Of a stretch of 47,763 nt of DNA, positions 15,457-26,453 are shown piece after piece. Numbering within the stretch: the stretch's first letter is position 1; every line of letters begins with the position of its first letter. The notes below the pieces were generated by a model. The model had not been told where the DNA came from. It saw nothing but the letters and a program-made list of their open reading frames with translations, and ran no database searches. The position numbers and the translations under genes were made by a program. This stretch comes from Thermodesulfobacteriota bacterium (GTDB lineage Bacteria > Desulfobacterota > Desulfobulbia > Desulfobulbales > DAOVYS01), in assembly GCA_034659175.1 (NCBI GenBank), contig JAYEGR010000027.1, forward strand, positions 1 to 47,763, in the 5' to 3' direction.

Positions 15457-18279
15457 CAGACCATTCCGCACCGTTTTCAGGACAAATCCTAAAACACGTT
15501 TTTAGTACACCTCGTTCAGGTGTTCTCGGCATACTGATTTTCGAATTTTACCTTCAGTCCAAGACCTCCCCACCAGGCAACCCTGTTGAGTCCACGTTCA
15601 GAACGACTCTGCAGAAGACGACCAATCGCGGACTGGAGTTCTCCCTGTCCCGTGTCCAGATAGGTGAGTTCCAGATGGTCGCCACGTTGACGAACGTTAC
15701 AGTTGTGCCTTCCGAATAGCAAGTATCGAAAGGTCGATAATGTCCTCTTGTACCCTGCCGAATCTCTGACAAACCTTTCATCCAGGGACTGTAGAAAATT
15801 CTCATAGGCGAGTCTGGCCACCTGTACACAGTAGAAGTTGGTCTCTATCTTCTCTGGATCTTTACCCAGGATTTGATCTATGAAGTAGCTGTGGATCAAA
15901 TCCTTTAATCCGTTTTCGATGGGCCAGCGTAGCCTGTATCTATCCAAGACCTCTTGATTCGTGAGATCTTGAAAAGTAGTTCCGAAACAACGCACATCAC
16001 CTGTTTTCTTGTTCCTTTTGACCACCAAGTGGAGCACCTTGGCGAGATTGCTCAGGTCAAACCGTTTTCCCGCGATCTCGTATTCCTTCCCAAAAGCTTC
16101 CCATTGGGCTTCGGAGACCACTTCATATATCAGCTGATCAACTCGCTTGTTTCGTTTCAGGCACATGATCACATCGACTTGGGAGAACTCATCGACGACA
16201 AAATAGTCGATTACCGGAAAGCTCGCGTATTCGCTGTCCATGTAGATCTCACGCATCGCATCGCGCCCCAGGATCGGATAGAGGTTCTTTTCGCAGAACT
16301 CGCGGACAATCCTCGTTGCTCTGCTCGAACCGTTGCAGAATGCTATGTTGATTAAAACGTCCGTGTCGAGGTCCCAGATAACATGGGGCCGAAAGCCGGG
16401 ACAAATATCGCCGGCAAAGTTGGGTCCTTTGCCAATTTCCTCTGTGTCGGGCTGAAGGCCGTAGAACTCTTTGAAGTGAAAATCCTGTGCGATCTTATCG
16501 CCCCGGATCAAACCCAGATCCCGCGCCCTGGCGGCCACGTCATTTCGAAGAGCCTGGAGGTGCTTGAACTTCAGATCAGCAAACCCATCGTACAGGGCCG
16601 TCTTCCCCGGAAAGACACCCACGCCGGCCGCGACCGCCACAGAGCGATCACTGTTTCCATCGGGGTGTCCCACCGTCTCGTATCCAGCCAGGATTCGGCA
16701 GACGTTCAAGAGGACAAGATTGGTGATCTCACTGCCCTCGCCCCTTTTAGGACCGTAGGTATGGAGAGCCTCGCAGACCCCCAGATCATCAATAAACTGC
16801 GCAAGCACAATCGGACCAGGATCGCAGACCGCAAATGCCCGGCTCTTCATACGCTCCAAAAAATGTGCGAAGTGCGCGTTCAACTTTTTTGGAACCAGAA
16901 ACCGGCCTGCCTCGGCCGCCTCTTTTGCTGTCTTGAGAAGAGATCCCGGCTTCTCCGACACCTCTTCTCCCCAAAGACCACGCAATCGTACCGGCCTGCG
17001 TTTCTTCTCCAAGAGTTCCCAGTACCGCAGGACTTCGTAAAGCGCCGAGCGGGAACAGCGCAAGTCCATCCGCGCCATCAGCTCATCCAAGCTGAAACGC
17101 GGATGTTCCACCTTCTCCTCAATGATGCGCAGCTCCAATTCATCGGAGATTTTCCCCCGACCCCGACCCGGCTGTATCCAATCCACCAACCCCCACGCGC
17201 CGTAGTGCCGAAAGCGATGCAGGTACTTGTAAAAGGTTGGTCGCGACATACCATAGCGGCGTATTGTATCCCCTGACTTGCGCTTCTGCTTCAAGCCCAG
17301 TTCCCGAAATAACTCGAAGCGTAATTGCAGCGCCTCCTCAGGCCTGTAGAACGTACCCCTGCGGTCTGTCTTGCTTCGGGTCGGCCCTATTTGCGACGCT
17401 AACCGCCGAATCGCCCGCACGCTCTGCTGGATTCCATGCCAGTAGCGCCGGTCATTCTCATCGCGGTTATTCCCGATTCCATGGCAATGCAAAGCATGGC
17501 TGATCGTACGTAGCGTGGGGCTTGGTGTTAGACCAAGCGACTCGGCGAAGCGCAATATCATCGTTTCCGTGGCCTTGGGCCTGGACATCTTCACCATCAA
17601 AGCGAGACGTTCAAGCTTGTGGTTCTGCTTCTTTGCGCCCAACTCAGGGTAGAGAGCAGCGTTCCCGTGTTTGATGAATGCGGTCTCTATGCGGTAGAAG
17701 TCAGTTCTGAAACAACAAGCATCTTTGCAGGCTGCGGTGATGGAATTCCGTTCCATCCAAACACTACGAAGCATCTCGTAGTTGTGCACAACCGGATCGT
17801 CGATAAAAAAAGGCACATCAGGATTGGGCGCCTTCAGTAGCGCATGGGCGACCATTGAAGGAAGCTCGGCCAGATAGCTCATTTGTTTCCGGGTGAAGAT
17901 CATGGTCCATGATTGTAAATGCCTAATCTGGATAAGTCAAGCTTTTTTGTATACCCCCATACCGAACATGGAGAATCAGCCTCAATTTGAGATAACCCGT
18001 TGAGACAATAAACATAATGAACAATGGCCATGATCAGACAAGGCTGGAGTACAAAGTGGCCGCAGATAGGATTTCCATCACAGGGATAAAATTTCCTTAT
18101 CTATAGAGGGATTGGGGCTCAATCCGCCCGTTTTGCGACTATTCGATTAGGGGATTTACATTTTGTTCGGAATGGCTATTTACAGCACAGTAAAATATCC
18201 TGATTTTTCAACTGGTTGCACCGAAAACGCATTCAAAGCCACGACGAAAACTGTACCTAAGACGGTGCGGAATGGTCTG
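15457..18279 (-). mobile_element. Insertion sequence (~2.8 kb) with terminal inverted repeats
   Basis: CAGACCATTCCGCACCGT at 15457-15474 is the exact reverse complement of 18262-18279 (18/18). Weaker similarity continues ~12 nt inward. A single long transposase ORF lies inside. No convincing target-site duplication was seen. Confidence 0.8.
15516..17903 (-). CDS. DDE transposase (IS4-like superfamily), 795 aa with a long HTH-rich N-terminal region
   Basis: The C-terminal signature YRLRWPIENGLKD is Y-x2-R-x3-E-x3-K. Candidate DDE blocks are FIDDLG and IYMDSEYAS. The N-terminal half has HTH-like segments (RRYGMSRPTFYKYLHRF). Confidence 0.85.
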   Translation of the reverse strand: MIFTRKQMSYLAELPSMVAHALLKAPNPDVPFFIDDPVVHNYEMLRSVWMERNSITAACKDACCFRTDFYRIETAFIKHGNAALYPELGAKKQNHKLERLALMVKMSRPKATETMILRFAESLGLTPSPTLRTISHALHCHGIGNNRDENDRRYWHGIQQSVRAIRRLASQIGPTRSKTDRRGTFYRPEEALQLRFELFRELGLKQKRKSGDTIRRYGMSRPTFYKYLHRFRHYGAWGLVDWIQPGRGRGKISDELELRIIEEKVEHPRFSLDELMARMDLRCSRSALYEVLRYWELLEKKRRPVRLRGLWGEEVSEKPGSLLKTAKEAAEAGRFLVPKKLNAHFAHFLERMKSRAFAVCDPGPIVLAQFIDDLGVCEALHTYGPKRGEGSEITNLVLLNVCRILAGYETVGHPDGNSDRSVAVAAGVGVFPGKTALYDGFADLKFKHLQALRNDVAARARDLGLIRGDKIAQDFHFKEFYGLQPDTEEIGKGPNFAGDICPGFRPHVIWDLDTDVLINIAFCNGSSRATRIVREFCEKNLYPILGRDAMREIYMDSEYASFPVIDYFVVDEFSQVDVIMCLKRNKRVDQLIYEVVSEAQWEAFGKEYEIAGKRFDLSNLAKVLHLVVKRNKKTGDVRCFGTTFQDLTNQEVLDRYRLRWPIENGLKDLIHSYFIDQILGKDPEKIETNFYCVQVARLAYENFLQSLDERFVRDSAGYKRTLSTFRYLLFGRHNCNVRQRGDHLELTYLDTGQGELQSAIGRLLQSRSERGLNRVAWWGGLGLKVKFENQYAENT

Positions 18280-18531: not shown

Positions 18532-18750
18532 CTATGCCACCCGGTAAATAACAGGTCGATATTCCGGCGAAGGAATCGGTTTACCGTTTGCCTTTGCTGC
18601 TTCTAGCCAGCTTTTCTTGGCGGCCAATACTTCTTCCAGCGCTTGATCCGGTTTTTCAGCAAAGGCAGAGCATGCTTTTAAGTCTGGAATATCCGCGATA
18701 TATCCCTCATCTTCTTCACTGTAAAAAATATTGATATGATAATCTTTCAT
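18532..18750 (-). CDS. hicB: HicB-family antitoxin
   Basis: The 72-aa ORF MKDYHINIFYSEEDEGYIADIPDLKACSAFAEKPDQALEEV is a typical HicB/UPF0150 N-terminal fold. It lies immediately downstream of hicA. Confidence 0.8.
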   Translation of the reverse strand: MKDYHINIFYSEEDEGYIADIPDLKACSAFAEKPDQALEEVLAAKKSWLEAAKANGKPIPSPEYRPVIYRVA

Positions 18751-18788
18751 TATTCTTCCTCCATTTGGAGATTGTGGCTTTCTATCAA

Positions 18789-19001
18789 TTACAGAAATTG
18801 TTTGATTTGATATGGTTTTGCCTTTCCTTTGACATTTTGCAAGTTCAACAAGTCAGGAATGTCTTTGTGCGTAAGGATATGATGGCTTCCGTTTACCCTG
18901 TCCAACTGAAAACCGAATACCTCAGCACATGCCATCGCTTCCGAAAAACGAATATTTTTTGTTCCTGATAGTAATTTTTGAAGAAGCTTTCTCTTTTTCA
19001 T
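18789..19001 (-). CDS. hicA: HicA-family mRNA interferase toxin
   Basis: The 70-aa ORF has the YcfA/HicA pattern (KLLQKLLSG...GFQLDRVNGSHHILTH...KPYQIKQ). Confidence 0.8.
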   Translation of the reverse strand: MKKRKLLQKLLSGTKNIRFSEAMACAEVFGFQLDRVNGSHHILTHKDIPDLLNLQNVKGKAKPYQIKQFL

Positions 19002-19497: not shown

Positions 19498-19957
19498 ATA
19501 GACCTCTTTGGGCACCAGTGGTCGGATGGCCCACCTGTGGTCTTTAGGCTTTGCGGAAGGATCGTTTTTCTCTGCTTTCATTTCACCTTACCTTTACAAT
19601 TTGGTGGTTCCAGCCAGATGATAGGAAATTGCTTTTTTTGCGGTCGGATCGGAGGGAGAAAAAAGTGTCTCCGACCCCCTTCTAACGACTAAAATAATTT
19701 TTAATCGATTATATTTTATATTGTCAAGTGGGAAATCAGGTCTGAATATTTCAAAAAAGGGATGGGGGAAGTTGTTTTGTCCCTATCCCTTATATGAAAT
19801 ATCCAAGGGTCAGTTGTTAATTGTTGACATAATCATTACACCAAATTATTATATCGGATTTTCTAAAATATTGCTTATAACTGTCTGGGAGAAAGATTTT
19901 TCCTGGGGAAATATTCGAATTTTTGCATTTCCGGATGAGCGTCTCGATACAATCATA

Positions 19958-20612
19958 ATGTTTGAAAATCTGTCAGATCGTTTAAACGATGTCTTTTTTA
20001 AAAAGCTCAGGGGTCACGGTAAGCTTTCCGAGGAGAACATCAAGGAGGCCATGCGTGAAGTTCGTATGGCTCTACTTGAGGCTGACGTTAATTTCAAGGT
20101 TGTAAAGGAGTTCATTGCCGTTATAACGGAAAAGGCTGTCGGTCGGGATGTGCTGGAAAGCCTGTCTCCCGGACAGCAGGTTGTCAAGGTTGTCCATGAA
20201 AACCGTATCTTGTGCCGGCTGACGTTTATCGTCCCGCCGCTATCGAACATTCGCATTCTGGGCAAAAGCATTTCCGTGCCCGTACACCCGTCACAGACTG
20301 ATCAGAATCCCGTGTCGATCTGCGGTAGTGCGGTTACAGCTTAAGGAACAGGTCGTAAATAAATTGAACAAAATTCCATCTCATCTTCAGGCCATCTTTG
20401 GCTGGCTTTCAATCACAAAATCCTCAACGTAGCCCTGCTACGCCTGCGGTTTTGCTCAATCAAGCCAGCTAAATCTAACCTAAAGCTGAGCGTAATTTTG
20501 CTCAATTTATTTCCTCTCTGTTCCTAAGTTTGTTGGTACCGACGAAAATCTTGACGCACTTGAAATTTTTCATCCTGACCGACTGGCATCACGTATCCTG
20601 TGATATGGATGA
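19958..20612 (+). pseudogene. ffh: Decayed duplicate of the ffh 5' half (SRP GTPase pseudogene)
   Basis: About 95 percent nucleotide identity by eye to 25101-25339 (MFENLSDRLNDV...QQVVK). It has a 3-nt insertion and a ~150-bp deletion that removes the GLQGSGKTTT P-loop, plus a 2-nt indel. A MITE (20340-20528) replaces about 270 bp. Homology resumes at 20529-20612 (matching 25912-25995) and then stops. Confidence 0.85.
20340..20528. mobile_element. MITE-like element (family 3) inserted in the ffh pseudogene
   Basis: About 39-bp imperfect terminal inverted repeats: CTTAAGGAACAGgtcgtAAATAAATTGAACAAAATT versus the reverse complement CTTAGGAACAGagaggAAATAAATTGAGCAAAATT. The interior is itself palindromic (GCTGGCTTTCAATCACAAAATCCTCAACGTAG / CTACGCCTGCGGTTTTGCTCAATCAAGCCAGC). 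Confidence 0.7.
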
Positions 20613-20621
20613 TAGGTAATT

Positions 20622-22154
20622 ATGATGCAGATGAACACTACAAATGAAAAAGAGAGGAATATTATAATAAGAATACTTGTAAAAAAGTCATTTCTTTTAT
20701 GCCTGTTTATCTTTTGTGCTTGCATATTTTCAGACAAGTCTTTTGCAACGCCGGATTCAGCGCGCACTATCCCGCCGGAATATCAAAAGGAAACACCAAA
20801 AAAGAAACCACGACTCCCATCACAACGGCTCGGTATTACCATAAACCCTGCCTCAATATTGAAACTACCGCCGTTAGATACAGCGCCGCTTTTAGCAGAA
20901 GATGCTGCCCAAGGCCATGGGCCAGCCCGCATCGGGGTGCATCGAGATCTAAATGTTTCACCGGAGACCCATGGCGAATGGCATGATATTGACGGCCGAG
21001 GACGTATTTGGCTTTTTGGCATTCATGCCCCTGATGCTAAAGGTTTCAGGATTCATTTCTCACAATGCTATTTGCCGAAAGGCGCACACATTTATGTCTA
21101 TTCACCTTCAAGACTCGATAAATATGAGGGTCCTTATAGATACTGTAAATGGGTAGGTACTGTTTGGGATAATACAGTTATTGTTGAATTAGTGGTGCCG
21201 GTTTTAACAGACCCGTCCCCATCTTTTGTGATTGATAAAATTGGTCATATGTATCGCTCAGTAAATCAACAACTGCTACCAAGGAAAACGTTACGTCAGG
21301 ACGGGGGGCCATGCAGGGTAGATGCAGCCTGCTATCCGGAATGGGCAATCGACGGCGATGCTGTGGGTTTAGTGGAGTTTGAGAAAATGGGTCAATTTGC
21401 GGTATGCTCTGGTACTATGCTGGACAATCAGGCTGAAGATTATACTCCATACTTTCTCACTGCCGAACATTGTATTGCAAGCGACGCTGTCGCTGATACG
21501 GCGAGAATTTATTGGTTTTATGAAACTTCGGCCTGCAATGGCTCGCCTTCTGATCTAAATAGTGTTCCAAAGTCAGAGAATGCCATGCTTCTTGCAAGTA
21601 AAACAGACATTGATTTTAGTGTACTGGAGATACTCGGGTCTGTGCCGCGCTCTTTGAGTTGGGCAAAATGGTCACTAACAGAACCTGAAACAGGAGATAG
21701 CGGCGTGGGACTTCATCACCCAGGGGGCACATTCCTTGGTAACGACGATTATAGACGAATTCTCTTTGGTAATATTGCCAGTAGTTCTACCGATTATATG
21801 TGGTACATCGATCATTGTCTTGGTGGTACTGAAACAGGTTCCTCAGGCTCTCCATTTTTTAATTCTTCCCATCAAATAATTGGGCAACTCTCTGGCGGTA
21901 CCGGAGTACCGTGTAGTCCTGATGATCAATCAAAATACGGCAAATTCTCTTTATCATACCCGTACATGCAAACTCTTCTTCAGGGTGGATCAGATGATGA
22001 ATTAGAAGATAATGACCTTCGTTCATCGGCAACAGAGGTTGAGGATGAAGTTTATAAAAGTCAGGTTGTAAAAATCTATGATGAAGACTGGTGTAAAATC
22101 AGTGTTCCTGAAAACACAAAAATCTCCGTAGATCTTTCTTTCATACATACATAA
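20622..22154 (+). CDS. Secreted trypsin-fold (S1, lysyl-endopeptidase-like) serine protease; N-terminal part of a frameshifted gene
   Basis: It has a signal peptide. The catalytic triad contexts are FLTAEHCIAS (His), DFSVLEI (Asp) and GTETGSSGSPFF (Ser). The last ~45 aa begin a PPC (pre-peptidase C-terminal) domain that is cut by the stop at 22152-22154. Confidence 0.8.
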   Translation: MMQMNTTNEKERNIIIRILVKKSFLLCLFIFCACIFSDKSFATPDSARTIPPEYQKETPKKKPRLPSQRLGITINPASILKLPPLDTAPLLAEDAAQGHGPARIGVHRDLNVSPETHGEWHDIDGRGRIWLFGIHAPDAKGFRIHFSQCYLPKGAHIYVYSPSRLDKYEGPYRYCKWVGTVWDNTVIVELVVPVLTDPSPSFVIDKIGHMYRSVNQQLLPRKTLRQDGGPCRVDAACYPEWAIDGDAVGLVEFEKMGQFAVCSGTMLDNQAEDYTPYFLTAEHCIASDAVADTARIYWFYETSACNGSPSDLNSVPKSENAMLLASKTDIDFSVLEILGSVPRSLSWAKWSLTEPETGDSGVGLHHPGGTFLGNDDYRRILFGNIASSSTDYMWYIDHCLGGTETGSSGSPFFNSSHQIIGQLSGGTGVPCSPDDQSKYGKFSLSYPYMQTLLQGGSDDELEDNDLRSSATEVEDEVYKSQVVKIYDEDWCKISVPENTKISVDLSFIHT

Positions 22155-24603
22155 TCATGGCAATATCGATCTTCAATTATATCAAGGTTCTAATCCTAAT
22201 CCTATCAGCAGTTCCTCAGGAACAGGGGACTCTGAGCATGTGGAACATTTAAATGAAGGTGAAGCAACAGATTATTTTTTTCGAGTCTTTTTAGACGATG
22301 ATACCCGGAATACATATAACATGATAATAAAATTTGGTGAAGCTGATCCTGCACACTGGATAAAAACATACGGGCTTTATGATGGCACAGCGTATGCTGT
22401 TCAACAGACCTCTGATGATGGCTTTATAGTTAGTGGAATATATGATTACAGGAGTTGGGTATTTAAACTTGATGCAGGTGGGAATATTCAATGGCAAAAG
22501 AATTATGCAAGTGAGGAAAATGATTTTAAGCAGGCTACTCGCCGTATTTTACACCCGACTAAACTTGTATTATCCAAGCCAAAAATGACAATATCCTGGG
22601 CCGAACAATTCTCCATTCAGCAAACATCCGAAGGGGGATATGTAGTAACTGGTCAAAATGAAAATGATTATGATTATGATTATGATGCCTTGGTTTTTAA
22701 ACTCGATCTAAACGGAAATATCCAGTGGCAAAAGACATACGGCGGGAACAATTATGATTTTACTCATGCCATTAAACAGACTTCTGATGGCGGCTATATA
22801 GTTGTTGGGACAAGTTATTCTTTTGGCATGGGAAATGGTGACTGTTGGGTATTAAAACTTGATTCAAGCGGAGTAGTCCAGTGGCAGAAGACATATGGGG
22901 GGACCGAGAATGACGTAGCTTATTCAATCCAACAGACATTAGATAACGGCTATATAGTAGCTGGTGCGACCATGTCTTTTGGCGCTGGAAATGGTGATTT
23001 TTGGGTATTGAAATTAGATAATACCGGGAATGTAATTTGGCAGAGGGCCTATGGGGGTAATGATCAGGATGTTGCCCAGTTTGTTCAGCAAACTTTAGAT
23101 GGAGGGTATATAGTTGTAGGAGAGAGCTACTCATTTGGAGGTGTTTCTATTGACTTCTGGGTAGTAAAGCTTGCAAGTAATGGAGGTGTTGAGTGGCAAA
23201 AAGCTTATGATGTCGGCGCTGATTCAGCTTACTCTGTCAATCAAACAATTGATGGTGGCTATATTATAGCAGGTGATTCGCGTTCTTTTTCCGATTATGA
23301 CTATGATGCTTTGGCCTTAAAACTAGATACGAATGGGAATATTGAATGGCAGCACAGATATGGCGGCAGTGATGATGAGGCTATTTATTCCATCCAGCAG
23401 ACAAGAGAAGGTGAGTACATAGCCGCAGGTTATAGCTGGTCGTTTTTGTCTAATTATGGCTGGGTTTTGAATATTGACAGCACTGGAAATATAGCGGATT
23501 GTTCAGGTGTGGGGTCAGCAAGCGTCACCAATTATGATACAAATGCAATTATAAGCAATACTGAGGGGTTAGCCTTGAATAGTACAGCATCTGCACAACC
23601 GGCTGGTTTGCTGGCCATAGACCTGAGCGATCCTGCCATTGAAGTGTGTCAGGCAATTATGCCGGAGCCGGAACTTTTTGTTAACCGGGCATCTATAGAC
23701 TTCAATTACCTTGGAGTTAATGGCTTAGAAGTAAGGGATGTAAGAGTCTCTAATAAGGGTCAGGCTGATCTTGTGATAGATTCGATTGATATTACAGGCG
23801 CAAATGCAAACGAATTTAGCGAGTCAAATGACTGTTCAAATGTTGCCGTGCTTGATTATTGTACTATTCATGTATTGTGTTTGCCAACCGCTGCCGGACA
23901 AAAAACCGCCTCTCTCGATATTATATCCAATGATCCTCATACACCCAGCTTAAATATAGAATTGAATGGAAATGTAGGCAACCTAGTCACTATAACCAAA
24001 TCAGGTACAGGAGATGGCACAGTCACCAGCACAGCCGGCATAGATTGTGGATATGTCTGTGGAGAAGCCTATCAGAATGGGACTATTATTACATTGATTG
24101 CAACACCTGAGCCTAATTCAACATTTAGTAGCTGGACTGGCTGTGATAGCTCAATGGGGCTTACATGTTCACTGACCGTTAATTCAGACAGGATTGTGAC
24201 TGCTAACTTTATTGCTGAATCTCCAACTTATTACACACTCGATGTTACTAAGGATGGCACAGGAAGTGGGACAGTTCAGAATTGTCTCAAGGGCATTGAT
24301 TGTGGATTAGATTGCACAGAATTCTATATTGATGGAACTCTTACAGTTCTTACTGCTGTTCCTGCTGGTGGCTCAATTTTTGCTGGCTGGACAGGGGGGG
24401 GATGCGGTGGAACAGAGTCATGTGTAGCAACAATGGATGAAAATAAAACAATCACTGCTACATTTACAGATATTCCTAATGATCCAGATTTTGATGGCGA
24501 CGGGGATATAGATGGCACAGATTTATCTGCCTTTGCAATGGAAGTAGCAAGTGGAACAAATACAATCAGTATTGAGGATTTTGCATTCGGTTTTGGTCTA
24601 TGA
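22132..24603 (+). CDS. Continuation of the protease gene in the +1 frame: PPC remainder, 7-repeat beta-propeller, ASH/choice-of-anchor-D-like Ig domain, two InlB-B-repeat-like domains and a dockerin-like Ca-binding tail
   Basis: The frame is open from 22132; the track starts it at GTG 22240. HGNIDLQLYQGSNP...GEATDYFFRVFLDD...YNMIIKFG completes the PPC domain. Seven repeats of about 60 aa follow (consensus W-Q-K-T-Y-G-G ... QQT-DGGYIV-G ... D-WVLKLD). Later come GTGDGTVTS...IDCG..C and GTGSGTV...IDCGLDC repeats, and the tail DPDFDGDGDIDGTD. Confidence 0.8.
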   Translation: MFLSYIHNHGNIDLQLYQGSNPNPISSSSGTGDSEHVEHLNEGEATDYFFRVFLDDDTRNTYNMIIKFGEADPAHWIKTYGLYDGTAYAVQQTSDDGFIVSGIYDYRSWVFKLDAGGNIQWQKNYASEENDFKQATRRILHPTKLVLSKPKMTISWAEQFSIQQTSEGGYVVTGQNENDYDYDYDALVFKLDLNGNIQWQKTYGGNNYDFTHAIKQTSDGGYIVVGTSYSFGMGNGDCWVLKLDSSGVVQWQKTYGGTENDVAYSIQQTLDNGYIVAGATMSFGAGNGDFWVLKLDNTGNVIWQRAYGGNDQDVAQFVQQTLDGGYIVVGESYSFGGVSIDFWVVKLASNGGVEWQKAYDVGADSAYSVNQTIDGGYIIAGDSRSFSDYDYDALALKLDTNGNIEWQHRYGGSDDEAIYSIQQTREGEYIAAGYSWSFLSNYGWVLNIDSTGNIADCSGVGSASVTNYDTNAIISNTEGLALNSTASAQPAGLLAIDLSDPAIEVCQAIMPEPELFVNRASIDFNYLGVNGLEVRDVRVSNKGQADLVIDSIDITGANANEFSESNDCSNVAVLDYCTIHVLCLPTAAGQKTASLDIISNDPHTPSLNIELNGNVGNLVTITKSGTGDGTVTSTAGIDCGYVCGEAYQNGTIITLIATPEPNSTFSSWTGCDSSMGLTCSLTVNSDRIVTANFIAESPTYYTLDVTKDGTGSGTVQNCLKGIDCGLDCTEFYIDGTLTVLTAVPAGGSIFAGWTGGGCGGTESCVATMDENKTITATFTDIPNDPDFDGDGDIDGTDLSAFAMEVASGTNTISIEDFAFGFGL

Positions 24604-24811
24604 AGTAGTTGTACATTCGCTTATTACTTAAAGGTTACGCGAAACTGGAACGATTGGTGATAGAAAACTGCTTTTTTTGCGGTCGGATCGGAGGGAGAAA
24701 AAATTATCTCCGATCCTCTTCTAACGGCTAAAATCATCTTTAATTGATTATATTTTAATGTATCGGAAAAACAAAGTTTTTGAAATATTGATAATTGATC
24801 TTAATTGGGAT

Positions 24812-24971
24812 GGGAGCATTCGCATTTTCTGACAACAAGCTGAAAAATGAAAAAATGTTGCCTGTGACTTAAAATTTCAGGTGTTTTTACTCTCACCGAG
24901 TGCTGATTCTATCAAAAAAGAAGCATATGGTCTTGTGAATTCCTGTTCTGTCAGAAATTGCGAATGCACCC
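24812..24971. mobile_element. 160-bp MITE (family 2) with an 8-bp target-site duplication in the ffh upstream region
   Basis: The TIRs are GGGAGCATTCGCATTTTCTGAC (24812-24833) and the reverse complement of 24950-24971, GGGTGCATTCGCAATTTCTGAC (20/22). It is flanked by direct ATTGGGAT at 24804-24811 and 24972-24979. Confidence 0.8.
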
Positions 24972-25100
24972 ATTGGGATGCCCTTGCCCGAAGGGCATCA
25001 TGTTCCTGAAATATTGCTTATAACTCTCCGGGAGAAAGGTTTTTCCTGGGGAAATATTCGAATTTTTGCATTTCCGGATGAGCGTCTCGAGACAACCACA

Positions 25101-26453
25101 ATGTTTGAAAATCTGTCAGATCGTTTAAACGATGTTTTTAAAAAGCTCCGGGGTCACGGTAAGCTTTCCGAGGAGAACATCAAGGAGGCCATGCGTGAAG
25201 TCCGTATGGCCCTTCTTGAGGCTGATGTTAATTTCAAGGTTGTAAAGGAGTTCATTGCCGTTATAACGGAAAAGGCTGTCGGTCGGGATGTGCTGGAAAG
25301 CCTGTCTCCCGGCCAGCAGGTTGTCAAGATTGTCCATGAGGAATTAATTGAATTACTTGGAGGCCAGGGCGAAGGCCTGAAACTTACCGGACCGTCACCA
25401 GCCATTATCATGCTGGTTGGGTTACAGGGTTCCGGTAAGACGACAACTGCCGGCAAGCTGGCCGGATTCCTGAAATCAAAGGGACGAAGACCGTATCTTG
25501 TGCCGGCTGACGTTTATCGTCCCGCTGCTATTGAACAGCTTCGTATTCTGGGCAAAAGCATTTCCGTGCCCGTTCACCCGTCACAGACTGACCAGAATCC
25601 CGTGTCGATCTGCAGTAGTGCGGTTTCAGCGGCAAAGGAAAATCGGCATGACATCGTAATTCTTGACACTGCGGGACGACTCCATATTGACGAGGTCCTG
25701 ATGGAGGAACTCGCTCAGATCAAAACAGAGGTAAGGCCTGCCGAGATCCTGTTTGTCGCTGATGCGATGACCGGGCAGGACGCGGTCACGGTTGTTGAAA
25801 AATTTAACATTGGTCTTGAGATCACCGGCGTAATTCTCACCAAGATGGAGGGTGATGCCCGGGGTGGCGCGGCCCTGTCAATAAAAAAAGTAACTCAAAA
25901 ACCGATTAAGTTTGTTGGTACCGGCGAAAATCTTGACGCACTTGAAATTTTTCATCCTGACCGGTTGGCATCACGTATCCTGGGAATGGGTGATATTCTT
26001 ACGCTGATCGAGAAGGCTGAAGAGGTTGTTGATAAAAAAAAGGCGGAAAAACTCCTCAAGAAAATCAAGAAAAACGCCTTTACCCTGGAAGACTTTCTTG
26101 ATCAGATCCAACAGATAAAAAAGATGGGTAGCCTGAAACAGATCATGGGCATGATACCTGGTATAAACAAGATTAAGCAGCTTAAAAATATGCCGACACC
26201 GGATGAAAAAGAACTTGTCCGGGTGGAGGCGATTATCAAATCCATGACCCTTGATGAACGCCGCAGGTACCAGATTATCAATGCAAGCCGCAGGCAACGT
26301 ATTGCCAGGGGCAGCGGGACCACGGTTCAGGATGTAAATAAGGTACTTAGAAGCTATACTGAAATGCTCAAAATGATGAAAAAAATAGGAGGTCCGGGCA
26401 TGACGGGCGGCGGGAAAAAGAAGCGGAAAAGGCCCAAAGGTCTGTTCCGATAG
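25101..26453 (+). CDS. ffh: Signal recognition particle protein Ffh
   Basis: The N-terminus is MFENLSDRLNDVFKKLRG. The P-loop is GLQGSGKTTT, with DTAGRL and TKMEGDARGG boxes and a Met-rich M domain. I moved the start from the track value 24978 to the ATG at 25101, because the extension reads through the MITE flank. Confidence 0.95.
   Translation: MFENLSDRLNDVFKKLRGHGKLSEENIKEAMREVRMALLEADVNFKVVKEFIAVITEKAVGRDVLESLSPGQQVVKIVHEELIELLGGQGEGLKLTGPSPAIIMLVGLQGSGKTTTAGKLAGFLKSKGRRPYLVPADVYRPAAIEQLRILGKSISVPVHPSQTDQNPVSICSSAVSAAKENRHDIVILDTAGRLHIDEVLMEELAQIKTEVRPAEILFVADAMTGQDAVTVVEKFNIGLEITGVILTKMEGDARGGAALSIKKVTQKPIKFVGTGENLDALEIFHPDRLASRILGMGDILTLIEKAEEVVDKKKAEKLLKKIKKNAFTLEDFLDQIQQIKKMGSLKQIMGMIPGINKIKQLKNMPTPDEKELVRVEAIIKSMTLDERRRYQIINASRRQRIARGSGTTVQDVNKVLRSYTEMLKMMKKIGGPGMTGGGKKKRKRPKGLFR

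What the first reader, a model, noticed from the sequence alone, without database searches (positions are those of the whole stretch)
20622..24603. Two adjacent ORFs are one ~1,320-codon secreted multidomain protease gene split at a (CATA)3 tract
ORF 20622-22154 ends ...DEDWCKISVPENTKISVDLSFIHT-stop. The +1 frame is open from 22132 and continues HGNIDLQLYQGSNPNPISSSSGTGDSEHVEHLNEGEATDYFFRVFLDDDTRNTYNMIIKFG. Together these form a single pre-peptidase C-terminal (PPC) domain, so the break falls in the middle of a domain. The second ORF on its own would have no signal peptide and would begin with a GTG inside that domain. The overlap zone (22142-22153) is CATACATACATA. Removing one CATA unit gives ...LSFIHNHGNIDL... 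in frame. This could be a fresh inactivating mutation, an assembly error, slipped-strand on/off switching, or recoding. Three units is short for classical phase variation. The domain string is also unusual: S1 lysyl-endopeptidase-like, PPC, 7-blade propeller, ASH/choice-of-anchor-D-like, 2x InlB-B-repeat-like and a dockerin-like DxDxDG tail.
Basis: partly seen in the sequence, partly recalled or inferred. Interest (0 to 1): 0.7.

Follow-up and report, generated by a model that had tools for sequence, protein, structure and literature searches.

The report
Protease gene broken by 4-base duplication
Two neighbouring reading frames are really one large secreted protease gene that a recent four-base CATA duplication has knocked out of frame; this is an ordinary, freshly broken accessory gene and not a new mechanism.

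Summary
ORF 20622-22154 stops at TAA 22152-22154. The +1 frame is open from 22132 to 24603, and CATACATACATA sits at 22142-22153. Deleting one CATA gives a 1,325-aa protein with a complete PPC domain spanning the junction. Six metagenome contigs carry close orthologues (94-95.5% nt identity for the two alleles aligned, 1,321 and 1,322 aa). All encode a single ORF; the five whose DNA I read have (CATA)2, and all six proteins read ...LSFIHNHGNI.... The CATA unit is the only frame-breaking difference; every other indel is a multiple of 3. More distant homologues (44-49%) are also fused, with invariant spacing that fits a 4-nt repair and not a 1-nt repair. Downstream of the break there is no second lesion. 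The window's own branch still shows purifying selection (pN/pS 0.18), so the break is very recent or, less likely, an assembly or variant artefact. Phase variation and recoding are not supported. The protein is a lysyl-endopeptidase-family S1 protease: propeptide, catalytic domain, PPC, 7-blade propeller, choice-of-anchor-D Ig domain, two InlB-B-repeat-like domains. The dockerin call fails. The architecture recurs elsewhere. The public record holds two proteins (510 and 787 aa) here. Interest is low.

The parts
20622..22154 (+). ORF1 (510 aa): signal peptide, propeptide, complete S1 catalytic domain and the first 3 of 8 strands of the PPC domain, ending at a premature TAA
   Evidence: (Trypsin_2 27.9 bits against cut-off 27.6)
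20622..20747 (+). Predicted Sec signal peptide (residues 1-42, K-rich n-region, hydrophobic core, SFA|TP). The cleavage site was inferred by eye
   Evidence: sequence; (helix 9-35, then a disordered linker)
20805..21266 (+). N-terminal propeptide domain homologous to the lysyl endopeptidase propeptide
   Evidence: 9omd_I, E 1.7e-7; beta-rich domain, residues about 62-215, pLDDT above 90
21303..21986 (+). Lysyl-endopeptidase-like chymotrypsin-fold catalytic domain (residues about 228-455; His283 in TAEHC, Asp331, Ser408 in GSSGSP)
22032..22341 (+). PPC beta-sandwich domain (repaired residues about 471-572), split by the frameshift between strand 3 and strand 4
22132..22154 (+). Overlap zone in which both frames are open; the frame change must lie here
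22142..22153 (+). (CATA)3 tract. All five orthologous contigs whose DNA was read have (CATA)2, so one unit is a 4-nt tandem duplication private to the window
22240..24603 (+). ORF2 as listed (787 aa from GTG). The GTG is an internal Val codon (..SEHVEHL..) of the fused protein. ORF2 has no signal peptide and starts inside the PPC domain
22354..23475 (+). Seven-bladed beta-propeller (28 strands; the family is annotated 'delta-60 repeat' or DUF5122 in homologues)
22513..22611 (+). Basic insertion of about 26-33 aa in blade 2, absent from the repeat consensus, predicted disordered (pLDDT about 35), conserved in the close alleles
23665..23940 (+). Choice-of-anchor D / ASH-HYDIN-type Ig-like domain
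   Evidence: 2e6j TMt 0.76
23980..24471 (+). Two divergent InlB B-repeat (Flg_new_2) domains
24472..24603 (+). C-terminal tail with one DxDxDG Ca-loop-like motif plus the stop codon; not a recognisable dockerin
19619..20613 (+). Decayed, internally deleted copy of the ffh upstream region plus the 5' two-thirds of ffh. It abuts the protease start. Its counterpart in relatives is an uninterrupted 310-aa N+G-only Ffh fragment

Best explanation
One gene for a secreted multidomain protease of about 1,321-1,325 codons was knocked out of frame in this lineage. The cause was a 4-nt tandem duplication, (CATA)2 to (CATA)3, of the kind produced by replication slippage. The protein belongs to the lysyl-endopeptidase (Achromobacter protease I / LysC) family. 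Translation from the native start now ends at TAA 22152-22154. The 510-aa product keeps the signal peptide, the propeptide and the whole catalytic domain, plus only 3 of the 8 PPC strands. The remaining 815 codons are no longer translated as part of a secreted protein. They cover the rest of PPC, the 7-blade propeller, the choice-of-anchor-D Ig domain, two InlB-B-repeat-like domains and the tail. The event is very recent, because the downstream part carries no second lesion and still shows purifying selection. Shown here: the gene is single in relatives, the lesion is exactly +4 nt in the CATA tract, and the domain identities hold. Inferred: the lesion is real in the organism and not an assembly or variant artefact; ORF2 is not expressed as a useful product; ORF1 may still yield an active but untargeted protease.
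For: (1) Close orthologues are single ORFs. P0121 (1,321 aa) lies on four contigs, L081-L084. P0245 (1,322 aa) lies on L085. Partial P0243 reads through the junction in frame. (2) All five contigs whose DNA was read have ...TCTTTCATACATAATCATGG. The 3-way DNA alignment shows the CATA unit as the only indel that is not a multiple of 3; the others are 3, 6, 3, 6 and 6 nt. (3) 18 of 18 distant homologues, plus P0209, P0232 and P0234, have exactly 30 residues from DEDW to GD/NI-D/N. The 4-nt repair gives 30 and a 1-nt repair gives 31. P0234 (49% identity) even reads SVDLSFIHNHGD. (4) Pfam PPC covers the junction with the full profile above its cut-off. AlphaFold2 gives mean pLDDT 88.6, with 95-97 across the junction, which falls in the loop between strands 499-507 and 514-520 of an 8-strand sandwich. 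(5) Recency: on the window's terminal branch the ORF2 part has 27 synonymous and 17 non-synonymous changes. That gives pN/pS 0.18, different from neutrality at p = 2e-8, with no further stop or frameshift in 2.45 kb. (6) About 30 other genes in the window give full-length Pfam matches, so the assembly is not riddled with indel errors. (7) The adjacent ffh fragment carries several large lesions private to this lineage, which are not sequencing errors.
Against: No reads are available, so the extra CATA could be an assembly or polishing error or a minority variant picked by the assembler. A very recent break and an artefact look identical in sequence. Only one contig carries the (CATA)3 allele. 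Whether ORF1's product is active, or is degraded because of its partial PPC domain, is untested.
Confidence: 0.78

Rival explanations
1. The extra CATA is not in the organism's genome, or not in most cells. It would then be an assembly, polishing or consensus artefact, or a rare variant captured in the contig, and the gene would really be intact.
For: The downstream 2.45 kb is otherwise flawless and still under purifying selection, which is what an intact gene would show. All six other contigs are in frame at the junction. Only one contig carries the allele.
Against: A clean 4-nt tandem duplication is not a typical error of short-read or long-read platforms (my own knowledge). None of about 30 other genes in the window is frameshifted. 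The same allele carries another private slippage-type change, an in-frame +6 ATGATT, so slippage variants do occur in this lineage.
Confidence: 0.15
2. The CATA tract is a slipped-strand contingency switch. It would toggle between a full-length multidomain protease (2 units) and a truncated, free catalytic fragment (3 units).
For: The lesion is a gain of one repeat unit and is reversible in principle. The target is a secreted or surface-type protein, the usual class for phase variation. ORF1 retains a complete catalytic module, and family members occur with many different C-terminal modules.
Against: Two or three units is far below the tract lengths of known tetranucleotide contingency loci (my own knowledge). 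All five other contigs whose DNA was read, representing two diverged alleles, have exactly 2 units. The window shows no SSR enrichment: one x3 tetranucleotide tract against 0.6 expected. In the ON state the tract encodes conserved residues (FIHNHG) and not a spacer.
Confidence: 0.04
3. Programmed recoding. Ribosomes would shift +1, or hop +4 with tRNA-His re-pairing from CAT 22146 to CAT 22150, to make the full-length protein from the (CATA)3 mRNA.
For: The repeat geometry allows perfect +4 re-pairing, which would regenerate exactly the wild-type FIHNHG sequence (my reading). The shift window ends in a stop codon.
Against: The frameshift is absent from every orthologue and homologue, whereas programmed sites are conserved. 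I saw no Shine-Dalgarno-like stimulator and no known +1 slippery motif in 22110-22160. ACA-TAA offers no +1 re-pairing.
Confidence: 0.02
4. The two ORFs are genuinely separate genes, as the public protein records have them.
For: The public protein collection holds two proteins of 510 and 787 aa for this contig.
Against: ORF2's GTG is an internal Val codon of all fused orthologues. ORF2 starts inside a domain and has no signal peptide. No homologue is split.
Confidence: 0.01

Closest known systems
Lysyl endopeptidase / Achromobacter protease I / Lysobacter LysC (S1 chymotrypsin-fold serine proteases; PDB 1ARB, 4NSY, 9OMD)
   Same: The catalytic domain is homologous (profile E 1e-52 to 2e-47; top Foldseek hits). 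The N-terminal propeptide is homologous to the LysC propeptide. The His/Asp/Ser motifs are conserved. The enzyme is secreted as a pre-pro-form with C-terminal extension domains. A conserved Lys precedes the predicted mature N-terminus.
   Different: Only about 24-26% identity in the structural alignments. There is a much longer C-terminal train (PPC, propeller, Ig, 2x B-repeat). Lys specificity is untested. In this window the gene is frameshifted.
Uncharacterised metagenomic orthologues P0121 and P0245 (fused, 1,321 and 1,322 aa), and paralogue-level relatives P0209, P0234 and P0232
   Same: The domain order is the same from end to end. P0121 is 91% identical in protein over the full length, P0245 is the closer allele (95.5% nt), and the more distant set is 47-49% identical. 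The junction sequence LSFIHNHG is identical in P0121, P0245 and P0234.
   Different: They are intact single ORFs with (CATA)2. The more distant ones end in other C-terminal modules, such as CARDB.
Frameshifted pseudogenes created by short tandem-duplication (slippage) indels
   Same: One repeat unit is gained in a pre-existing two-unit direct repeat. This creates a premature stop and an apparent split gene that is annotated as two proteins.
   Different: Nothing substantive. The only nuance is that the upstream fragment keeps a complete catalytic module.
Tetranucleotide-repeat phase-variable (contingency) genes of Haemophilus and Neisseria
   Same: A tetranucleotide unit change inside the coding region of a secreted or surface protein shifts the frame.
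   Different: The tract is only 2-3 units. It encodes conserved residues. There is no length polymorphism among the other alleles and no SSR enrichment.

Membership tests
Lysyl endopeptidase family (S1, API/LysC-like) | Catalytic domain homologous to solved lysyl endopeptidases | tested here: met
   9omd_A E 1.3e-52, 4nsy 7e-49, 1arb 2e-47. Foldseek top hits are 4NSV, 4NSY and 1ARB, E about 1e-14, TMt 0.69.
Lysyl endopeptidase family (S1, API/LysC-like) | Catalytic His/Asp/Ser triad present | tested here: met
   H283 (TAEHC) is nearly invariant, D331 is invariant, and S407/S408 (GSSGSP) are nearly invariant across 55 family members. All are present in ORF1.
Lysyl endopeptidase family (S1, API/LysC-like) | N-terminal propeptide of the LysC type | tested here: met
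   9omd_I (lysyl endopeptidase propeptide), E 1.7e-7, profile positions 93-214.
Lysyl endopeptidase family (S1, API/LysC-like) | Lysine specificity (S1-pocket Asp correctly placed; cleavage after Lys) | tested here: inconclusive
   the loop before the YG motif varies in length. The window and P0245 read DDQSKYG, P0121 reads DDLYG, and several members lack the Asp. Enzymology is needed.
PPC domain (PF04151) | HMM match above the gathering score with full profile coverage, contiguous across the junction | tested here: met
   30.6 bits against 25.9 on the junction piece, profile 1-69/70. In the full-length protein it scores 24.5 bits, just under the cut-off; an 8-strand beta-sandwich, pLDDT 95-97.
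SSR-mediated phase-variable (contingency) locus | Long repeat tract with length polymorphism among strains and SSR enrichment | tested here: not met
   3 units here; 2 units in all five other contigs whose DNA was read. One x3 tetranucleotide tract in 47.7 kb against 0.6 expected.
Programmed ribosomal frameshift gene | Frameshift conserved in orthologues, with a slippery site and a stimulator | tested here: not met
   Orthologues and homologues are all in frame. No known motif is seen in 22110-22160 (by inspection).
Dockerin type I (PF00404) | HMM match at the gathering score; duplicated Ca-binding loop-helix | tested here: not met
   13.4 bits against 22.9, profile positions 3-17/57 only; tail pLDDT 33-45.
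Choice-of-anchor D (NF012200) | HMM match above the curated cut-off | tested here: met
   60.1 bits against 45, residues 1014-1105.
Divergent InlB B-repeat (Flg_new_2, PF18998) | HMM match above the gathering score | tested here: met
   63.2 bits against 23.6, two stretches.
Delta-60 repeat / DUF5122 seven-bladed beta-propeller | Repeat HMM above cut-off; 7-blade propeller fold | tested here: inconclusive
   The HMMs fall below their cut-offs: TIGR02608 scores 28.8 against 76.5 and DUF5122 has E 1.7. However, the AF2 model has 28 strands in 7 blades, the CylK propeller is the top Foldseek hit at E 6e-16, and homologues are named delta-60 repeat proteins.

The most novel reading that the evidence does not exclude
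The short CATA tract might work as a low-frequency, reversible toggle, or as a leaky +4 tRNA re-pairing site. A population could then produce both a free, truncated catalytic fragment and the full-length protease with its propeller, Ig and B-repeat binding train.
Probability: 0.04. Interest if true: 0.5.

Novelty: new member of a known kind. Interest (0 to 1): 0.15.

Why it matters
The main value is annotation. The public protein collection holds two separate proteins (510 and 787 aa) for what is a single, recently frameshifted gene, and fused orthologues now exist to correct this. The analysis also defines a small family of very large lysyl-endopeptidase-like secreted proteases with a conserved PPC, propeller, Ig and B-repeat train. 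Members occur in a Desulfobulbales-related genome, in unassigned metagenome contigs and in a Nitrospirae MAG. It gives a clean example of dating a break as recent from branch-specific pN/pS. It does not reveal a new mechanism.

Tried and rejected
(1) The first protein search, with the N-terminal 707 aa, returned nothing closer than 44% identity. It missed P0121, P0245, P0209 and P0234, which surfaced only with the C-terminal query. So 'no close orthologue' would have been a false negative of the word-indexed search.

(2) Exact look-ups of ORF1, ORF2 and Ffh in the contig index found nothing.

(3) A metagenome scan with a variable-gap pattern across the tract found nothing. My right flank carried a G where the L081-L084 allele has an A, and the fused alleles come from ENA or Logan assemblies, which that collection may not cover.

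(4) The genome-contig scan with Ffh gave only relatives at 74% aa identity or less, all Desulfobulbales and allies. None has a protease homologue within 10 kb of ffh, so synteny with named genomes was uninformative for the split.

(5) A 1-nt repair in the T-runs or after ACA was rejected, because it gives a 31-residue spacing where 21 of 21 homologues have 30.

(6) I suspected that the N-terminal oddities of the window allele (RYCK-WVG and DDQSKYG) were extra decay. This was rejected because the intact allele P0245 shares them.

(7) I tested for a recombination breakpoint at the frameshift. This was rejected because the maximum chi-square break is at about 21404.

(8) A paper search for the sample accessions found nothing.
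Full report
OBSERVATION. ORF1 runs from ATG 20622 to TAA 22152-22154 (510 aa) and ends ...ISVDLSFIHT*. The +1 frame has TAG at 22129-22131, reads IFLSYIHNHGNIDLQLYQGS... from 22132, and stays open to 24603. Its first possible start is GTG 22240, giving 787 aa. The third frame is closed. CATACATACATA occupies 22142-22153. It is the only tetranucleotide x3 tract in the window, and about 0.6 such tracts of any unit are expected by chance. The tract is therefore not remarkable in itself; its location at the frame break is. Removing one CATA gives an uninterrupted 1,325-aa protein.

ONE GENE, NOT TWO. Pfam's PPC model (PF04151) aligns over repaired residues 487-555, covering profile positions 1-69 of 70. 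It scores 30.6 bits against a cut-off of 25.9 on a 122-aa junction piece. ORF1 alone gives no PPC hit. An AlphaFold2 model of repaired residues 1-580, built with 54 homologues, has mean pLDDT 88.6 and pTM 0.85. It shows an 8-stranded beta-sandwich at residues 477-572 with pLDDT 95-97. The junction falls in the loop between strand 3 (499-507) and strand 4 (514-520).

The decisive evidence is comparative. The C-terminal query retrieved P0121, a single 1,321-aa protein. P0121 is encoded on four independent metagenome contigs, L081-L084, from three ENA assemblies and one Logan assembly. Its 90% cluster also holds P0245, a 1,322-aa protein on L085, and the partial P0243, which reads through the junction. 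All five contigs whose DNA I read have TCTTTCATACATAATCATGG, that is (CATA)2, encoding ...LSFIHNHGNI....

In the three-way DNA alignment the window is 95.5% identical to L085 and 93.9% identical to L081. The CATA unit is the only indel that is not a multiple of three; the others are 3, 6, 3, 6 and 6 nt. More distant homologues agree. In 18 of 18 family members, and in P0209, P0232 and P0234, the span from DEDW to GD/NI-D/N is exactly 30 residues. The 4-nt repair gives 30 and any 1-nt repair gives 31. P0234, at 49% identity, even reads SVDLSFIHNHGD. The GTG 'start' of ORF2 is the internal Val of ...SEHVEHL... in the fused proteins.

WHAT KIND OF EVENT. The mutation is a tandem duplication of one 4-nt unit in a pre-existing two-unit repeat, the classic product of replication slippage. 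It is recent. The 2.45 kb downstream carries no second stop or frameshift. Changes private to the window's terminal branch in the ORF2 part are 27 synonymous and 17 non-synonymous. That gives pN/pS 0.18, where neutrality would predict 78% non-synonymous (binomial p = 2e-8). The pairwise dN/dS against L081 is 0.26 upstream and 0.32 downstream of the break.

The same signature would arise if the extra CATA were an assembly artefact or a minority variant, and I cannot exclude that without reads. Three points argue against an artefact. About 30 other genes in the window give full-length domain matches with no other split gene. A clean 4-nt duplication is not a typical platform error (my own knowledge). 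The allele also has a private in-frame +6 expansion of an ATGATT repeat. I put a real mutation at about 0.78 and an artefact or variant at about 0.15.

Phase variation is unlikely, at about 0.04. The tract has two or three units, two diverged alleles both have exactly two, the tract encodes conserved residues, and the window shows no SSR enrichment. Recoding is unlikely, at about 0.02. The shift is absent from every relative, and no slippery or stimulatory motif is visible. I note only that a +4 re-pairing of tRNA-His, from CAT 22146 to CAT 22150, would regenerate the wild-type sequence. This is geometry, not evidence.

CONSEQUENCE. ORF1 keeps the signal peptide (residues 1-42, inferred by eye), the propeptide, the complete catalytic domain and 3 of the 8 PPC strands. 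The propeller, Ig and B-repeat train is lost. Family members combine the same catalytic module with many different C-terminal modules: sorting-signal-like tails, a T9SS-type tail, a dockerin, or almost nothing. An active but untargeted fragment is therefore conceivable. This is inference, and the partial PPC could equally compromise folding.

WHAT THE PROTEIN IS. A profile of the family matches solved lysyl endopeptidases: 9omd_A at E 1.3e-52, 4nsy at 7e-49 and 1arb at 2e-47. It also matches the LysC propeptide, 9omd_I, at 1.7e-7. Foldseek ranks LysC and Achromobacter protease I first. The His283, Asp331 and Ser408 motifs are conserved. Lys specificity is untested, because the loop carrying the candidate S1 Asp varies in length.

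The C-terminal model has mean pLDDT 85.6. It shows 28 strands forming 7 blades, a disordered insert of about 30 aa in blade 2, an Ig-like domain, two small beta domains, and an unstructured tail. The best structural match for the propeller is CylK at E 6e-16, and for the Ig domain the HYDIN PapD-like domain. Choice-of-anchor D (60 bits against 45) and Flg_new_2 (63 bits, two stretches) pass their cut-offs. Dockerin_1 does not: it scores 13.4 against 22.9 and covers one Ca-loop only. The architecture is not unique. P0209 (1,261 aa), P0234 (1,269 aa) and P0232 (1,307 aa; a Nitrospirae MAG protein named 'choice-of-anchor D domain-containing') share it at 47-49% identity.

CONTEXT. Ffh relatives place the window in or near Desulfobulbales, with a best match of 70-74% aa identity. 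None of the 80 related ffh loci has a protease homologue within 10 kb. Synteny is conserved downstream of ffh and not upstream.

The protease is immediately preceded by a decayed copy (19619-20613) of the ffh upstream region and the first two-thirds of ffh. This copy is 90-97% identical to the intact gene at 24658-25995. It has a 148-nt deletion, small indels, and a 182-bp segment flanked by 32-nt inverted repeats. In L081 the same junction exists, but there the fragment is an uninterrupted 310-aa ORF with complete SRP54_N and GTPase domains and no M domain. Homology between the window and both relatives stops at 24705, in the loop of a hairpin. After that point the L081/L082 contigs carry alanine racemase, L085 diverges in the same way, and the window carries ffh. 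An IS transposase and a hicAB-like pair lie just upstream. The gene is therefore lineage-specific cargo in a rearranging, mobile-element-rich spot, which fits dispensability.

VERDICT. The finding is an ordinary, very recent frameshift, or less likely an assembly or variant artefact, in an accessory protease gene. The practical outcome is an annotation correction, since the public protein collection holds two proteins for this gene. Novelty: a new member of a known kind. Interest: low.

Noticed in passing
window 19619-20613 versus 24658-25995; L081 330-1262: The protease gene is sandwiched between a decayed partial copy of ffh (upstream region plus the 5' two-thirds, 90-97% nt identity, several deletions) and the intact ffh. 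In a related metagenome contig the same ffh-fragment/protease junction exists, but the fragment is an uninterrupted 310-aa N+G-only Ffh ORF overlapping the protease start. So the 'ffh fragment + protease' unit predates the split of these lineages.
   Followed up: partly
window 24647-24705 and 19613-19671; L081 5240-5298: A short shared hairpin-containing element marks the right edge of homology with the relatives. Beyond it the relatives' contigs diverge from the window (L081 and L082 carry alanine racemase there), whereas the window has the ffh upstream region and ffh. A copy also sits left of the ffh fragment, which suggests recombination between copies moved the module.
   Followed up: partly
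window 20344-20525: A 182-bp segment bounded by 32-nt imperfect inverted repeats (84% complementary) replaces part of the ffh fragment. It looks like a MITE. A 78% match over 116 nt exists in an unrelated Thermodesulfobacteriota MAG locus (L006 12300-12415).
   Followed up: partly
window 15516-17903 (-), 18532-19001 (-): A 795-aa DDE transposase (an IS element) and a hicA/hicB-like toxin-antitoxin pair lie just upstream of the ffh fragment, so this is a mobile-element-rich spot next to the conserved ffh-rimM-trmD-rplS cluster.
   Followed up: partly
window 21025-21424 (propeptide / start of the catalytic domain): Divergence between alleles is mosaic: about 17-20% nt difference here against 2-4% in the 3' two-thirds. 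dS is 0.28 in the ORF1 part and 0.07 in the ORF2 part. Which allele is closest to the window changes along the gene. This suggests recombination among alleles or paralogues.
   Followed up: partly
window 22513-22611: A basic insertion in propeller blade 2 (within ..KQATRRILHPTKLVLSKPKMTISW..) breaks the 52-aa repeat period. It is predicted disordered and is conserved in the close alleles. Its function is unknown.
   Followed up: no
window 22664-22686: The hexanucleotide repeat ATGATT x3 (encoding DYDYDYD) has one more unit than in both intact alleles. This is an in-frame slippage polymorphism private to the window allele.
   Followed up: yes
window 19824-19852: The best sigma-70-like promoter match in the region (TTGACA-17-TATTAT, 11/12) lies upstream of the ffh fragment. 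That stretch is conserved with the head of L081 but not with the intact ffh upstream region, so it may drive the fragment-protease unit.
   Followed up: no
tool behaviour: The word-indexed protein search with the N-terminal 707 aa missed orthologues at 91% identity and homologues at 47-49% identity. The C-terminal query found them. A negative result from a single query should not be trusted.
   Followed up: yes
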